DNA of 63,375 bases from Candidatus Limnocylindria bacterium (GTDB lineage Bacteria; Chloroflexota; Limnocylindria; P2-11E), in the NCBI GenBank assembly GCA_038227105.1, contig JBBRQB010000004.1, positions 1-63,375 on the forward strand. The letters run 5' to 3'. This document shows, in pieces, positions 54,331-63,375 of this stretch. A program made the position numbers and the translations under genes. Position 1 is the first letter of the stretch. Each line of letters opens with the position of its first letter. The notes under the pieces are model-generated. The model saw only the letters and a program-made list of their open reading frames with translations, searched no databases and was not told where the DNA came from.

Positions 54331-54355
54331 GAAGCGCGGCCACTGGCCGCGCTTC
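54331..54355. terminator. Bidirectional intrinsic terminator between tRNA-His and the FecR gene
   Basis: GAAGCGCGGCC-ACT-GGCCGCGCTTC, flanked by AAACAA and GTTGT. Confidence 0.8.
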
Positions 54356-59710: not shown

Positions 59711-60151
59711 ATGCGCCGCCATATGCCCGCGTGGGCCGTCCAGTTCGCCGTCGGCATGGCTCTCGTCCTGGTGGCGATCGCCATCTTCGCGGCGCTCCTC
59801 GGTGCGGCCGTCCGGGGACCGACGGCGTTCTTCGATGAGCTCGGCAAGAACGTCGCGCGCCTTGCTCCCCAGGCGCAGCCCGACATCCGCGACGACGCGC
59901 AGCTGAAGGCGGCCATCCGGGCGATGCCTGACGGCAAGCTGCGCGTCGGGTCGGTCGTCGAGGACAAGGACCAGGTGGTGTTCACGATCACCGCGCCGCG
60001 CTCGGCGGTGCATGCGCTCGTGAAGCCGGGCGACGAGCTGCGGGTCGGGCGCGACGGGAACATCGAGATCGTGCCGACTGGGATCCCCGGCGTGCTCGAT
60101 CAGCTCCAGCGGAGCATCGAGGACCTCAAGAAGCGCTTCTTCGGGCCGTAG
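59711..60151 (+). CDS. Hypothetical membrane-anchored protein
   Basis: N-terminal TM helix and coding-like composition; TAGGCT-N6-ATG leaderless arrangement. Confidence 0.75.
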   Translation: MRRHMPAWAVQFAVGMALVLVAIAIFAALLGAAVRGPTAFFDELGKNVARLAPQAQPDIRDDAQLKAAIRAMPDGKLRVGSVVEDKDQVVFTITAPRSAVHALVKPGDELRVGRDGNIEIVPTGIPGVLDQLQRSIEDLKKRFFGP

Positions 60152-60176
60152 CGTCCCGGACCGTGGGGCCGGACGA

Positions 60177-60210
60177 ACAAAAGGGGCGCTCACCCGTGCG
60201 GGGAGCGCCC
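60177..60210 (-). terminator. Intrinsic terminator of the small minus-strand ORF
   Basis: Minus strand GGGCGCTCCCCG-CA-CGGG-T-GAGCGCCC followed by CTTTTGTT. Confidence 0.75.
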
Positions 60211-60236
60211 AATCTGTCCGACAAGGAAGCTTGTTG

Positions 60237-60431
60237 CTAGCTGGCGCGCTTGAGGGACGCGCCGTGCGCCTTGATCGCGGCGGTCTGGCGGGCGACGAGC
60301 TCGCCGCGCCACGCCTTGCGACGCTCGAGCGCCTCGCTGTAGCCGTGGTCGTAGGAACGGACCGCAAGGAAGCCGACAACGATGATGCCGAGGGCGGTGC
60401 CGACCATGATTCCGAGAGCGAAGATGAGCAT
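60237..60431 (-). CDS. Small single-TM hypothetical protein (64 aa)
   Basis: MLIFALGIMVGTALGIIVVGFLAVRSYDHGY...; has its own downstream terminator. Confidence 0.7.
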   Translation of the reverse strand: MLIFALGIMVGTALGIIVVGFLAVRSYDHGYSEALERRKAWRGELVARQTAAIKAHGASLKRAS

Positions 60432-61280: not shown

Positions 61281-62326
61281 ACCCACGCCGCGCCGGCGCC
61301 GTCGCCAGACGCATCGTGCTGCAGTTCCGCCGCGACCGGCGGTCGCTCGGACTCCTGTTCATCGCGCCCATGGTCGTGCTCACGCTCGTGGGCGCGCTCT
61401 GGGGCTCACCCACGCTGTCGAAGGTCCACGTCATCGCCGCCGGCAACGTCGATCCGCAGCTCTACGCGGCGCTGCAGGGCACGCAGATCGAGCTGAAGGC
61501 GCTCGACAAGGACGCCGCGATCGAGGAGCTGAAGGCCGGCCGCGCCGACGCGGTCATCGAGTTCGACCAAAGCGGCGCGACGGTCACGCTCGAGGGCTCC
61601 GATCCGTCTCGCACCAGCGCGATCGCCTCCACGATCCAGGCGGCGTTGACGGAGCTCATCATCGGCGCGCCATTGTCGGCGGCGGTGAAGATCGAGTATC
61701 TCTACGGCGGTCCCGACTACACGCTGCTCGATTACCTCGCGCCGGTGCTCATCGCGGTATTCGCGTTCTTCTTCATCTTCCTGCTCTCGACCGTCTCCTT
61801 CCTCCGCGAGCGCACCAGCGGAACGCTCGAGCGACTCATCGCGACCCCGATCACCAGGCTCGAGCTCGTCGTCGGGTACCTCGGCGGCTTCGCGCTCTTT
61901 GCGCTCGCGCAGGCAGTCGTCATTCTCCTGTTCACGGTGTTCGTGCTGAAGGTGCAGTACCGCGGCAACCTCCTGACGATCTTCGTCGTTGAGGCGGTAC
62001 TCGTGGTCGGCGCCGTGTCGCTCGGCCTCGCGATCTCCGCCTTCGCCCGGAACGAGCTCCAGGCCGTCCAGTTCGTGCCGCTCGTTCTCCTGCCCCAGGT
62101 TTTCCTCTCTGGACTTCTCGTGCCGGTGGATCAGCTCAACGACTGGCTGCGGCCCCTGTCAGCGATCTTCCCGCTCACCTACGCGAACGAGGCCCTGCGT
62201 TCGGTCATGGTCCGCGGCTACGCCATCACGGACCCGCTGATCCTGCGCGACATCGGCATCCTGACCGCGTTCGCCCTGGTCATGGCCGCCGCAGCGGTGG
62301 CGTCGATCCGCCGCGAAGTCGCCTGA
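61277..62326 (+). CDS. ABC-2 exporter permease
   Basis: RRDRRSL, RERTSGTLERL-x-x-TP, PQVFLSG-x-x-x-P, PLTYA. Confidence 0.92.
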   Translation: MNPRRAGAVARRIVLQFRRDRRSLGLLFIAPMVVLTLVGALWGSPTLSKVHVIAAGNVDPQLYAALQGTQIELKALDKDAAIEELKAGRADAVIEFDQSGATVTLEGSDPSRTSAIASTIQAALTELIIGAPLSAAVKIEYLYGGPDYTLLDYLAPVLIAVFAFFFIFLLSTVSFLRERTSGTLERLIATPITRLELVVGYLGGFALFALAQAVVILLFTVFVLKVQYRGNLLTIFVVEAVLVVGAVSLGLAISAFARNELQAVQFVPLVLLPQVFLSGLLVPVDQLNDWLRPLSAIFPLTYANEALRSVMVRGYAITDPLILRDIGILTAFALVMAAAAVASIRREVA

Positions 62327-62367
62327 CTCCCCCATTCAGGGGACGCCGTCGGACCGTCGCGGACGGG

Positions 62368-62521
62368 TATGCTGGTGTCGATTTGAGGAATGAGAATGGA
62401 CCCTGCGGGGTCCCGGTCCGCCGAGGCGGTCTGCCGTCTGTGCAACGTTTGGCCGCGCCGTTGGCGCGGCCTTTTTGTTGCCCACGCGGGTCTCAGACCG
62501 CGAACACGAAACGCTAGGAGG
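62368..62521 (+). promoter_or_regulatory. Promoter plus structured leader with intrinsic terminator (attenuator/riboswitch candidate) upstream of DUF47-pit
   Basis: TATGCT -10 (62368-62373); hairpins 62398-62413 and 62414-62433; terminator GGCCGCGCC-GTT-GGCGCGGCC-TTTTT (62451-62476); AGGAGG SD at 62516. Confidence 0.75.
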
Positions 62522-62526
62522 ATCGC

Positions 62527-63144
62527 ATGCGAATCTCGCTCATGCCCAAGAAGAGCATCTTCTTCACGCTATTCAGCCAGCACGCGCAGAACGCCCTCGA
62601 GGCGACCCAGGCGCTCGAAAAGCTCTTTTCCGACTTCACCGATGTCGACAACAAGGCCCGCGACATCCACGCGATCGAGCACTACGGAGACAAGCTGACG
62701 CATCAGATCATGCGGGAGCTGAACGAGACGTTCGTTACACCGCTCGATCGCGAGGACATTTTTGGGCTCGCATCGAAGCTGGACGACGTGACCGACGTCT
62801 GCCACGACGTCGCTGAGATGGTCGTCCTCTACAAGGTCCGCAGCATCCGCCCGCTCGCGGTGCAACAGGCGAAGGTCCTGGTGGCTGCCGCGACGCATCT
62901 CGTGACAGCGATCAAGGACCTCGAGAAGCTGGACGGGCTGGAGCCGCACTGGATCAAGATCCACACGCTCGAGAACGAGGGCGACTCCCTGTTCCGCTCC
63001 GCCGTCGGCGAGCTTTTTGCCCAGACCACGGACGCGATCGAGATCATCAAGTGGAAGGACCTGCACGCCCTCATTGAGGTCGCGATCGACCGCTGCGAAG
63101 ACGTCGCGAACATCGTTGAGACCATCGTGGTGAAGCACAAGTAA
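62527..63144 (+). CDS. DUF47 (PhoU-like) phosphate transport regulator
   Basis: IEH-x-GD, F-x-TPLDREDI, LDDV-x-D, LENEGD, DRCEDVAN. Confidence 0.93.
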   Translation: MRISLMPKKSIFFTLFSQHAQNALEATQALEKLFSDFTDVDNKARDIHAIEHYGDKLTHQIMRELNETFVTPLDREDIFGLASKLDDVTDVCHDVAEMVVLYKVRSIRPLAVQQAKVLVAAATHLVTAIKDLEKLDGLEPHWIKIHTLENEGDSLFRSAVGELFAQTTDAIEIIKWKDLHALIEVAIDRCEDVANIVETIVVKHK

Positions 63145-63375
63145 TGGACAGCGGCACATGGATCGTCATCGCGGTCGTCGTTCTCGGGCTGGTGTTCGAG
63201 TTCGTCAACGGCTTCCACGACGCCGCCAATGCGATCGCGACGGTCGTCGCGACGCGTGTGCTGACACCGTTCCAGGCGCTGGCCATGGCCGGCACGCTGA
63301 ACCTTGCCGGCGCGCTTGCCGGCACCGCGGTAGCCGTCACCGTCGCCAAGGGCATCGTCGACAGCACCAAGGTCA
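63144..63375 (+). CDS. pit: PiT family inorganic phosphate transporter (3' truncated by window edge)
   Basis: NGFHDAANAIAT signature; TAATG overlap with the DUF47 stop. Confidence 0.93.
   Translation, partial: MDSGTWIVIAVVVLGLVFEFVNGFHDAANAIATVVATRVLTPFQALAMAGTLNLAGALAGTAVAVTVAKGIVDSTKV

What the first reader, a model, noticed from the sequence alone, without database searches (positions are those of the whole stretch)
62368..62521. Switch-like leader with terminator and alternative antiterminator upstream of DUF47-pit
Seen: a -10 (TATGCT) followed by an approximately 145-nt leader. It holds hairpin 1 GGACCC/GGGTCC (62398-62413), hairpin 2 CCGC-CGAG-GCGG (62418-62429, extendable to 62414-62433) and a 9-bp terminator with a U5 tract (62451-62476). 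The 3' arm of hairpin 2, GCGGTC (62426-62431), can instead pair with the terminator 5' arm GGCCGC (62451-62456), a mutually exclusive antiterminator. A GAGGA SD precedes ATGs at 62390 and 62396, opening a uORF (MDPAGSRSAEAVCRLCNVW...) that runs through the hairpins. I recognise no known riboswitch class here. Inference: a ligand- or ribosome-coupled attenuator controls a phosphate/metal-phosphate transporter operon.
Basis: partly seen in the sequence, partly recalled or inferred. Interest (0 to 1): 0.72.

Follow-up and report, generated by a model that had tools for sequence, protein, structure and literature searches.

The report
Terminator-bearing leader before phosphate-transporter operon

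Summary
Comparison with 45 related loci (38 distinct sequences, all Candidatus Limnocylindria-like) shows a real, conserved module. It has a TAnnnT -10 box, a purine-rich 5' segment, hairpin H1 (almost invariant), hairpin H2 (covaries), a variable linker, and a 9-bp G+C terminator with a U tract whose 7-bp core never changes.

The module occurs only directly upstream of DUF47(PhoU_div)-pit. It persists where the upstream gene is divergent. In one clade only 23 nt separate its U tract from the start codon, so the terminator lies inside the operon's 5' leader and is not the ABC-2 operon terminator. Many close relatives have lost it, some leaving terminator remnants. No Rfam family matches.

The best reading is a cis-acting transcription attenuator that terminates by default, with an unidentified effector. 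The uORF start is not conserved and its frame shifts between close relatives. There is no evidence for ligand binding. Transcript data are limited to one metatranscriptome contig that crosses the U tract. I rate it a new member of a known kind, of moderate interest.

The parts
62328..62343 (+). H0: C-rich/G-rich hairpin (TCCCC-CATTCA-GGGGA) 2 nt after the ABC-2 stop codon, with no U tract. It is a likely 3' end structure of the ABC operon and lies upstream of the leader promoter.
   Evidence: It is present in nearly all 38 relatives, with a compensated variant in L110 (CCCTC...GAGGG). It is also kept in L006, which lacks the ABC genes.
62368..62373 (+). -10-like box TATGCT (TAnnnT), the inferred promoter of the leader and of DUF47-pit.
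   Evidence: T, A and the final T are invariant in all 38 distinct elements while flanking bases vary. The spacing to the conserved 5' segment is fixed at 8-9 nt. A TAnnnT box stands about 30-40 nt upstream of the ATG in most relatives that lack the element. The sigma-70 consensus scan finds no -35/-10 pair. The TSS has not been measured.
62381..62397 (+). Predicted 5' end of the RNA (about 62380-62381, inferred) and a purine-rich single-stranded segment, UUGAGGAAUGAGAAU.
Evidence: It is conserved within clades: GGAAUGAG in clades A and A3, GAAGUCUGAU in clade B. It is unpaired in the MFE and centroid folds.
62398..62413 (+). H1: hairpin GGACCC-UGCG-GGGUCC.
   Evidence: Across 38 sequences, 4 pairs are invariant, the basal pair is G-C in 31 and G.U in 7, and pair 3 is A-U in 34 and A.C in 4 (subclade A3). 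There are no compensatory changes. In 20 metagenome hits the invariance follows from the search pattern; it also holds in the sequences retrieved by protein.
62414..62433 (+). H2: hairpin CGG-U-CCGC-CGAG-GCGG-U-CUG (core 62418-62429).
   Evidence: It covaries. Three pairs are swapped between clades A and B (C-G/G-C, G-C/C-G, C-G/G-C). Within clade B, pair 1 runs G-C/G.U/A-U and pair 6 runs G-C/G.U/A-U. Subclade A3 turns the U.U mismatch into G.U.
62434..62450 (+). Variable linker between H2 and the terminator.
   Evidence: Its sequence and length (16-26 nt) are not conserved between clades.
62451..62476 (+). T: intrinsic terminator, a 9-bp G+C stem with loop GUU, followed by U5.
   Evidence: Terminator scan. 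The 7-bp core CCGCGCC/GGCGCGG is invariant in 38 sequences. The flanking pairs show double changes (G-C/A-U in 14 sequences; closing C-G/U-A twice independently), 98.9% of cells are paired and 0 of 500 shuffles reach this. A U tract is present in every full element. Predicted stability is -15 to -19.5 kcal/mol.
62477..62526 (+). Post-terminator part of the leader, with the Shine-Dalgarno AGGAGG at 62516-62521.
   Evidence: It contains no conserved TAnnnT. It is 50 nt in clade A, about 85 nt in A3 and only 23 nt in clade B.
62527..63144 (+). DUF47 / PhoU_div gene, the first gene of the controlled operon.
   Evidence: PF01865, E = 8e-28. There are 1591 homologues, the closest from Ca. Limnocylindria MAGs.
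63144..63375 (+). pit (PiT/PHO4 family phosphate transporter). Its start overlaps the DUF47 stop (TAATG) and the gene runs off the end of the window.
   Evidence: The full-length orthologue in L001 hits PF01384, E = 5e-85. The window's N-terminus, read directly, matches the start of the L001 protein, MDSGTWIVIAVVVLGL.

Best explanation
The region is the 5' leader of the DUF47-pit operon and works as a cis-acting transcription attenuator. Transcription starts a few nucleotides downstream of a TAnnnT -10 box (about 62380; inferred). The nascent RNA forms H1 and H2. The polymerase then meets a strong intrinsic terminator (62451-62476) 50 nt before the DUF47 start codon.

The default outcome is premature termination, giving an RNA of about 96 nt. 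The operon is expressed only by read-through. Read-through is presumably modulated by an effector that acts on the sequence-conserved parts: the 5' segment, H1 and the terminator core. I favour a trans-acting factor such as an RNA-binding protein over a ribosome or a directly bound small molecule. The reason is that the most conserved parts are helix sequences, not junctions or loops, and no covarying antiterminator exists.

Shown here: the anatomy, its conservation, the covariation of H2 and T, the exclusive linkage to DUF47-pit, and the position of T inside the transcription unit. Inferred: the TSS, termination itself, regulated read-through and the nature of the effector.
For: 1) There are 38 distinct copies in 45 loci, all immediately upstream of DUF47-pit and never elsewhere. 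An element-centred metagenome scan gave 20 true hits, all in this context. The covariance model finds one copy per locus and none elsewhere in 518 kb. The window holds a single copy.
2) The TAnnnT box is invariant at fixed spacing. Most relatives without the element carry a TAnnnT box about 30-40 nt before the ATG.
3) T lies inside the transcription unit. Clade B has 23 nt from U tract to ATG and no promoter-like box. L006 and L053 have a divergent upstream gene. The ABC-2 gene has its own hairpin H0 right after its stop codon. A metatranscriptome contig, 100% identical to L093, runs from DUF47 across the SD and U tract into the 3' arm of T.
4) The RNA structure is supported. H2 and T covary. 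Non-Watson-Crick cells are mostly G.U (about 28 cells in roughly 10 events) against one A.C event, which points to a plus-strand RNA rather than a DNA palindrome. Folding z = -3.7.
5) Canonical terminators are rare in this genome, 3 in 63 kb, so one placed between a promoter and its gene is unlikely to be incidental.
6) Independent deletions (L029, L049, probably L004) remove the 5' arm of T but keep its 3' arm, the U tract and the SD. This is as expected if T is a barrier to expression.
Against: There is no direct measurement of a TSS, of termination or of condition-dependent read-through. The only RNA evidence is one contig at depth 3 from a relative, and DNA carry-over cannot be excluded.

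No conserved, covarying antiterminator was found. Thermodynamically the H1+H2+T state dominates.

H1 shows no compensatory change, and one subclade carries an A.C mismatch. The invariant terminator core is not what a freely evolving expression platform looks like, and it is retained, with a weak U tract, in relatives that lack H1 and H2 (L047, L052).

The element is dispensable. Only 15 of 59 close genome loci have it in full, and 6 have it in part. No candidate regulator gene co-occurs with it.
Confidence: 0.45

Rival explanations
1. Independent small RNA gene. The promoter, the ~96-nt RNA with a single-stranded 5' seed and two hairpins, and the terminator form a trans-acting sRNA. DUF47-pit is expressed by leakage through its terminator, or the two functions coexist, as with riboswitch-derived sRNAs.
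For: The anatomy (promoter, 5' single strand, hairpins, strong terminator) is that of a typical sRNA. Presence or absence among close relatives with otherwise identical gene order looks like gain or loss of a small gene. The helix sequences, rather than only the pairing, are conserved.
Against: It is always glued to DUF47-pit in the same orientation, also when the upstream gene changes. In clade B the operon has no room for its own promoter, so the two cannot be independent units. The putative seed differs strongly between clades. No complementary site was found in the 63-kb window beyond chance, though that is a very limited target space.
Confidence: 0.17
2. Metabolite- or ion-sensing riboswitch. 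The 5' segment, H1, H2 and linker form an aptamer (for Pi, a metal-phosphate, a divalent cation or a nucleotide) that controls the terminator directly.
For: It has the position and layout of a transcriptional riboswitch. H2 covaries. The H2 3' arm is complementary to the 5' arm of T in every sequence, and is somewhat better than shuffled or helix-flipped controls, with p of 0.01-0.3 per sequence. No protein partner was identified. No riboswitch class commonly associated with phosphate transporters is known, so this niche is unfilled (PMC9971707).
Against: The structure is very simple, two plain hairpins with no multi-helix junction and no supported pseudoknot. Few unpaired nucleotides are conserved between clades. 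The linker is not conserved. The expression platform is more conserved than the putative aptamer. The element has a single gene context and is confined to one bacterial class. The antiterminator does not covary. There is no Rfam hit, including the ykkC, mini-ykkC and ion classes.
Confidence: 0.12
3. Unregulated barrier or dampener. T simply sets a low constitutive level of the operon, and/or insulates it from read-through from the ABC operon. H1 and H2 are stabilising 5' structures.
For: Full elements are found almost only where a co-directional ABC-2 gene lies upstream, 15 of 16 genome loci. No antiterminator is evident. T-like hairpins without a good U tract persist as 5'-UTR stem-loops in L047 and L052.
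Against: The link with ABC-2 is confounded by phylogeny. L006 and L053 lack a co-directional neighbour. H0 already follows the ABC-2 stop codon. A strong terminator placed after the operon's own promoter is an odd way to set a constant level. The conserved sequences of the 5' segment and H1 are left unexplained.
Confidence: 0.1
4. Ribosome-coupled (leader-peptide) attenuation. Translation of a uORF through H1 and H2 (and T) decides whether T forms.
For: A start-like NTG (TTG, GTG or ATG) sits at a fixed position (62383 in the window). Its frame has no stop codon up to the end of T in the 31 sequences tested, whereas the other two frames acquire stops in 9 and 4 sequences. In clade A that frame ends at a TAG overlapping the DUF47 SD. 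An ORF that reads through the terminator recalls the pyrBI leader (from my own knowledge).
Against: The NTG frame has no SD, lies 1-3 nt from the predicted 5' end and is the weak codon TTG throughout clade A. Peptides are unrelated beyond about 10 codons and shift frame between the window/L001 and their closest relatives. Open frames are expected at 67% G+C. The stop-codon contrast rests on about 3 independent events per frame. There is no run of regulatory codons.
Confidence: 0.08
5. DNA-level operators. The palindromes GGACCC-N4-GGGTCC and CCGCGCC-N3-GGCGCGG are binding sites for dimeric repressors downstream of the promoter, not RNA structures.
For: Both helices are conserved in sequence rather than only in pairing. 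The double changes in T also preserve DNA symmetry. In the partial forms the T palindrome lies about +15 to +40 from the predicted start, a typical operator position.
Against: A U tract follows T in all 38 full elements. Departures from Watson-Crick pairing are overwhelmingly G.U (strand-specific, tolerated in RNA) rather than A.C. H2 covaries freely.
Confidence: 0.04
6. T is only the terminator of the ABC-2 operon, and DUF47-pit is transcribed from a promoter downstream of it.
For: T lies 125 nt after the ABC-2 stop codon, on the same strand.
Against: See the best explanation, point 3: clade B spacing, L006 and L053, H0, the conserved TAnnnT upstream of T with none downstream, and the RNA contig crossing the U tract.
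Confidence: 0.03

Closest known systems
Terminator-based 5' leaders (transcription attenuators, and riboswitch expression platforms of Firmicutes and Actinobacteria)
   Same: A promoter-proximal structured leader and a canonical intrinsic terminator, followed by the SD and the regulated transporter operon. The element is gained and lost between relatives without change to the genes.
   Different: No recognisable aptamer, no covarying antiterminator, and the terminator core is sequence-invariant. The effector is unknown. There is no Rfam match.
ANTAR-regulated leaders (EutV, NasR, AmiR targets)
   Same: Two small hairpins upstream of a terminator in a leader. These are protein-dependent antitermination systems, the kind of effector I favour here.
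   Different: ANTAR substrates, from my own knowledge, have hexaloops with conserved A1 and G4, and the second hairpin overlaps the terminator. Here the loops are 4-5 nt (UGCG; CGAG or GGAAG) and 16-26 nt separate H2 from T. The element is therefore not a member.
Leader-peptide attenuators (trp type; pyrBI type, where the leader ORF reads through the terminator)
   Same: An open frame from a conserved NTG runs through H1, H2 and T and, in clade A, ends at the SD of the first gene.
   Different: No SD, TTG as the start in clade A, no conserved peptide or regulatory codons, and frame shifts between close relatives.
Guanidine-II (mini-ykkC) and other two-hairpin riboswitches
   Same: A small leader built of two hairpins upstream of a transporter gene.
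   Different: The ACGR loops that define mini-ykkC (from my own knowledge) are absent. There is no Rfam hit even at E <= 10. The gene context also differs.
sRNAs produced by premature termination in 5' UTRs (for example the riboswitch-derived SreA and SreB of Listeria)
   Same: The terminated product of about 96 nt would look like an sRNA, with a 5' single strand, hairpins and a terminator.
   Different: No evidence of a stable product or of targets.
Cis-acting processive antitermination RNAs (HK022 put, Bacillus EAR)
   Same: Two hairpins immediately downstream of a promoter and upstream of a terminator.
   Different: No sequence or structural similarity was tested or found. I considered this only as an analogy. 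It would predict constitutive read-through.

Membership tests
Any Rfam 15 family | Covariance-model match at or near the family's gathering score | tested here: not met
   In the window 61800-63000, the best hit has E = 1.3 and 17.7 bits against a gathering score of 70. In five relatives from both clades, the only hit is Leu_leader at 23 bits against 50, E = 0.43.
Intrinsic (Rho-independent) terminator | G+C-rich stem, short loop and an immediately following U tract | tested here: met
   9 G-C pairs, a 3-nt loop and U5. It is conserved with a U tract in 38 sequences and with compensatory changes at three pairs.
Intrinsic (Rho-independent) terminator | Transcripts actually end at the U tract | not testable with these tools
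   No raw RNA reads were available. The metatranscriptome contigs show only a molecule that crosses the U tract.
Riboswitch | Conserved aptamer whose helices covary and whose junctions or loops are conserved | tested here: inconclusive
   H2 covaries. H1 does not, showing only G.U and one A.C. The linker and most unpaired positions differ between clades.
Riboswitch | Mutually exclusive antiterminator and terminator supported by conservation | tested here: not met
Only the invariant GCGG:CCGC core remains. No other conserved alternative helix carrying information was found.
Riboswitch | Direct ligand binding | not testable with these tools
   This needs in-line probing or in vitro transcription.
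Leader-peptide attenuator | Conserved, translatable uORF (SD plus start) with conserved regulatory codons | tested here: not met
   The ATG at 62396 is replaced by ACG or AGC in most sequences. The NTG frame lacks an SD. Peptides are not conserved and shift frame.
ANTAR target RNA | Two hairpins with hexaloops (A at position 1, G at position 4), the second overlapping the terminator | tested here: not met
   The loops are UGCG/CGCG and CGAG/GGAAG, and a 16-26 nt linker precedes T. The defining features are taken from my own knowledge of the family.
Guanidine-II (mini-ykkC) | Two hairpins with ACGR tetraloops | tested here: not met
   The loop sequences differ and there is no Rfam hit.
Trans-acting sRNA gene | Own promoter and own terminator | tested here: met
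   This is met by sequence features only: an invariant TAnnnT and a canonical terminator.
Trans-acting sRNA gene | A transcription unit independent of the downstream gene | tested here: not met
   Clade B has no space or box for a second promoter. The element is always in the same orientation directly before DUF47.

The most novel reading that the evidence does not exclude
The leader is a direct RNA sensor, a new riboswitch class, for inorganic phosphate, a metal-phosphate complex or a divalent cation. It would gate a PiT-family transporter and so be the first riboswitch class dedicated to phosphate uptake.
Probability: 0.1. Interest if true: 0.85.

Novelty: new member of a known kind. Interest (0 to 1): 0.48.

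Why it matters
Control of phosphate uptake in bacteria is known almost entirely at the protein level (PhoR-PhoB/PhoP, PhoU). A 2022 survey of riboswitch ligands states that no riboswitch class commonly associated with phosphate transporters has been found (PMC9971707). A conserved RNA leader with a built-in terminator in front of a DUF47-pit operon would therefore add an RNA layer to phosphate or metal-phosphate homeostasis, whatever its effector. It would do so in Limnocylindria, an abundant and uncultured soil and freshwater lineage whose gene regulation is essentially unstudied.

The natural set of full, partial and deleted versions gives ready-made mutants for testing. If the effector is a protein, the two sequence-invariant helices are a handle for finding it.

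The expected importance is limited by several facts. The element is confined to one class, it is built of simple hairpins, and many close relatives do without it.

Tried and rejected
- Rfam searches of the window and of five relatives at permissive E-values found nothing.
- RNA-seq support was sought. The runs holding the window sequence appear to be DNA metagenomes, with contigs up to 137 kb. Soil metatranscriptomes hold a relative (L093) only at depth 2-3, and only as contigs. No contig covers the leader itself.
- I looked for a P1-like helix between the 5' segment and the sequence just before T. It is present in a few sequences (L033, L016, L141) but not conserved.
- A conserved-complementarity scan of all column pairs found extra 4-6 bp matches. 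These include the H1 loop and 3' arm with the 5' arm of T, the H1 3' arm with the end of T, and purine runs with the U tract. All involve invariant G+C or U-tract columns, so they carry no information.
- I found no consistent SD-sequestering helix in the post-terminator region by inspection of the alignment.
- A search for a co-occurring regulator gene, by clustering ORFs in 59 loci, found no family specific to loci that carry the element.
- A search of the window for sRNA targets complementary to the 5' segment found nothing beyond chance.
- MAFFT could not place the 16-nt and 17-nt forms of H2 in register, even with an N placeholder. I therefore counted H2 pairs with my own parser, and the covariance model uses only H1 and T as structure.
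- Literature searches for DUF47 or pitA with riboswitch found nothing relevant.
Full report
**Observation**

These are the -10-like TATGCT (62368-62373), the GAGGA with ATGs at 62390 and 62396, and hairpin H1 GGACCC-TGCG-GGGTCC (62398-62413). They also include hairpin H2 (core 62418-62429, extendable to 62414-62433 across a U.U mismatch) and a 9-bp all-G-C hairpin with a U5 tail (62451-62476). GCGGTC (62426-62431) is complementary to GGCCGC (62451-62456).

The terminator is picked up by the consensus scan. In my own stricter scan it is the strongest of only three canonical terminators in the 63-kb window. The predicted 102-nt leader folds into H1, H2 and T at -51.7 kcal/mol, z = -3.7 against dinucleotide shuffles.

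The neighbours are as stated. An ABC ATPase and an ABC-2 permease (stop codon at 62326) lie upstream. A PhoU_div/DUF47 gene (62527-63144) lies downstream, followed by a PiT/PHO4 transporter whose ATG (63144) overlaps the DUF47 stop codon.

**Origin and relatives**

The DUF47 protein has more than 1500 homologues. The closest, at 73-98% identity, come from Candidatus Limnocylindria (Chloroflexota) MAGs and from soil and sediment metagenomes. I collected 80 genome loci by protein similarity and 73 metagenome loci with an element-centred DNA pattern. I added 11 further loci by looking up the exact proteins of homologues.

**The key comparative finding**

The spacer between the upstream gene and DUF47 is dimorphic. 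It is either about 175-230 nt or about 36-76 nt. Every long spacer contains the same module:
- a TAnnnT box, invariant in all 38 distinct sequences;
- 8-9 nt later, a purine-rich 15-nt segment;
- H1;
- 2-3 nt;
- H2;
- a linker of 16-26 nt that is unconserved between clades;
- the terminator with its U tract;
- then 23 nt (clade B), 50 nt (clade A, which includes the window) or about 85 nt (subclade A3) to the DUF47 start codon.

Most short spacers keep a TAnnnT box about 30-40 nt before the ATG. In effect the module is a cassette inserted between the operon's promoter and its ribosome-binding site.

**Specificity**

The pattern scan did not require any gene context. All 20 true elements among its 73 hits lie directly before DUF47, and the other 53 hits are unrelated coding sequence or generic terminators.

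A covariance model built from 31 sequences scores the window copy at 99.7 bits. It finds exactly one full copy in each of 16 sources, at 87-104 bits. It finds partial copies in L032, L053 and L050 (28-31 bits) and the terminator alone in L047 and L052. It finds nothing convincing elsewhere in 518 kb. The window has a single copy. No Rfam family matches the window or the relatives.

**Is the terminator just the end of the ABC-2 operon?**

The evidence says no, for six reasons.
- L006 has the full module although the ABC genes are absent and the upstream neighbour is a divergently transcribed small gene. L053 has a partial module next to a divergent EamA-like gene.
- Subclade A3 has a different, 253-residue ABC-2 gene upstream and still carries the module.
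- In clade B only 23 nt separate the U tract from the start codon. They contain the SD but no TAnnnT, so DUF47-pit must be transcribed through the terminator.
- The ABC-2 gene has its own conserved hairpin H0 (62328-62343), two nucleotides after its stop codon and upstream of the leader promoter. One relative (L110) has a compensated stem there.
- A soil metatranscriptome contig, 100% identical to relative L093, runs from inside DUF47 across the SD and the U tract into the 3' arm of the terminator. This is weak evidence: depth 3, contigs only, and DNA carry-over is possible.
- Some relatives retain only the 3' arm of the terminator, the U tract and the following GUGUCC (L029, L049, probably L004). 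These deletions destroy the hairpin but keep the ribosome-binding site.

**RNA structure**

T is 98.9% paired over 31 sequences, and three of its pairs show changes on both sides. G-C becomes A-U between clades. The closing C-G becomes U-A twice independently, in L005 and L136, with U.G in L120. No shuffle out of 500 reaches the observed values, and slid controls collapse to 34-53% paired.

H2 changes sequence between clades while keeping its pairing, with three swapped pairs. Within clade B it runs through G-C, G.U and A-U at two positions. In subclade A3 the U.U mismatch of clade A becomes G.U.

H1 is different. Four of its six pairs never vary, the basal pair alternates between G-C and G.U, and subclade A3 has an uncompensated A.C. 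One caveat applies: in the 20 pattern-derived sequences H1 identity is imposed by the search. It also holds in the sequences retrieved by protein.

Across all three helices, departures from Watson-Crick pairing are mostly G.U (about 28 cells, roughly ten events) against a single A.C event. This asymmetry points to a plus-strand RNA rather than DNA palindromes. The 7-bp core of T (CCGCGCC/GGCGCGG) is unchanged in 38 sequences, although the adjacent linker has diverged beyond alignment. Both H1 and the T core are therefore constrained in sequence, not only in pairing.

On the alignment, the six proposed pairs (columns 49-54 with 82-87) are 81% paired and show no compensatory change. All 500 shuffles do at least as well. 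The two outer pairs simply break in clade B, and one of them also breaks in subclade A2. What remains is GCGG:CCGC, four invariant pairs.

Some complementarity between the H2 3' arm and the 5' arm of T exists in every sequence, in a different register in clade B. It is modestly better than shuffled or helix-flipped controls, with p of 0.01-0.3 per sequence, and the sequences are not independent. However, the duplex (-8 to -17 kcal/mol before loop closure) would have to displace H2 (-8 to -15) and T (-15 to -19.5). Folding the RNA up to the T loop gives no consistent alternative structure. A scan for conserved complementarity finds only matches between invariant G+C or U-tract segments.

The default state is therefore termination. 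An antiterminator remains possible but is not supported.

**The uORF**

ATG 62396 is ACG in nine clade-A sequences and AGC in most of clade B. ATG 62390 is conserved only in clade A and directly abuts the GAGGA.

A different frame starts at a conserved NTG (62383; TTG in clade A, GTG or ATG in clade B). It is open through T in all 31 sequences tested. The other two frames pick up stops in 9 and 4 sequences, which corresponds to about three independent events each. In clade A this frame ends at a TAG overlapping the DUF47 SD.

That frame, however, has no SD and sits 1-3 nt from the predicted 5' end. It uses TTG in the window's clade and encodes peptides unrelated beyond about ten codons. It also shifts frame between the window/L001 and their nearest relatives. 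At 67% G+C, open frames of 44 codons are expected about a third of the time. Ribosome-coupled attenuation is therefore not excluded but has no positive support.

**Mechanism**

The best-supported reading is a cis-acting attenuator. The polymerase starts near 62380, transcribes a leader that folds into H1 and H2, and by default stops at 62472-62476. DUF47-pit is made only by read-through.

The effector is not identified. I favour a trans-acting factor for three reasons. The strongest constraints lie on helix sequences (H1 and the T core). The T-like hairpin persists as a 5'-UTR stem-loop in more distant relatives that have lost H1, H2 and a good U tract (L047, L052). The features expected of an aptamer are missing.

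A search for a co-occurring regulator gene found none. Rivals are listed with their weights in the Rival explanations section:
- an sRNA gene whose terminator leaks;
- a true riboswitch;
- an unregulated barrier;
- leader-peptide attenuation;
- DNA operators;
- a plain ABC-2 operon terminator.

**Comparison with known systems**

The module works like the terminator-containing leaders of Gram-positive bacteria. It is not a member of any catalogued family. It fails the defining features of several candidates:
- ANTAR targets, which need hexaloops and a second hairpin overlapping the terminator;
- mini-ykkC, which needs ACGR loops;
- leader-peptide attenuators, which need a conserved translatable uORF.

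The definitions of ANTAR targets and mini-ykkC come from my own knowledge.

A review of riboswitch ligands states that no riboswitch class commonly associated with phosphate transporters has been found (PMC9971707). Literature searches for DUF47 or pitA with riboswitch returned nothing relevant.

**Verdict**

The general idea of a terminator-containing regulatory leader of DUF47-pit is supported. The specific antiterminator and uORF are not, and ligand sensing is untested.

It is a new member of a known kind, namely a new leader/attenuator RNA motif. It is restricted to Limnocylindria and dispensable in many relatives: 15 of 59 close genome loci carry it in full and 6 in part. Interest is moderate, at 0.48. 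The most novel reading still open is a phosphate- or metal-phosphate-sensing riboswitch, to which I give about 10%.

Noticed in passing
window 62328-62343; the same position in L001-L048 and most metagenome loci: A conserved hairpin H0 (UCCCC-loop-GGGGA, no U tract) lies 2 nt after the ABC-2 stop codon, upstream of the leader promoter. L110 has a compensated stem (CCCUC/GAGGG), and L006 keeps the hairpin although it lacks the ABC genes. It may be a terminator without a U tract or a 3'-end stabiliser.
   Followed up: partly
L029 2008-2054; L049 2939-3001; L004 2924-3001: Short spacers retain the 3' arm of the terminator plus the U tract and GUGUCC (for example GGCGCGGTCTCTTTTGTGTCC). This indicates independent deletions of the module that specifically remove the 5' arm of the terminator.
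   Followed up: partly
L053 2894-2981; L032 2870-2978; L050 2868-2985; L047 and L052 about 2930-2980; L056: There are graded partial versions. L053 has the 5' segment, an H2-like hairpin and T, but no H1. L032 and L050 have the promoter, a short 5' segment and T. L047, L052 and L056 have a T-like hairpin followed by ACUCUUUGG rather than a U tract.
   Followed up: partly
L156-L159, positions 972-1200: Subclade A3 has a different, shorter ABC-2 permease (253 aa) upstream. Its H1 carries an A.C mismatch (GGACCC...GGGCCC), its H2 is GGCCGC-UGUG-GCGGUUC, and about 85 nt separate the terminator from the ATG.
   Followed up: partly
window 54334-54352 (minus strand): This is the second of only three canonical terminators in the window (GCGCGGCC-AGT-GGCCGCGC followed by TTCTTGTT). 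It lies 30 nt after the stop codon of a 575-codon minus-strand ORF. Canonical terminators are rare in this genome.
   Followed up: no
L011 45-92; L013 824-871 (equivalent to window about 60150-60240): The hairpin between the convergent 146-aa gene and the small minus-strand membrane-protein gene uses the same stem sequence as T in some relatives (GGCCGCGCC...GGCGCGGCC). There the U-rich tail is on the minus strand. The window has a different G+C hairpin at that place.
   Followed up: no
window 63142-63146: The DUF47 stop codon and the pit start codon overlap (TAATG), which suggests translational coupling of the two genes.
   Followed up: no
L013, L031, L036, L062 (record titles): Loci with typical Limnocylindria-like DUF47-pit genes sit in MAGs labelled Saccharimonadales, Udaeobacter, Bathyarchaeia and Patescibacteria. 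These contigs were probably mis-binned.
   Followed up: no
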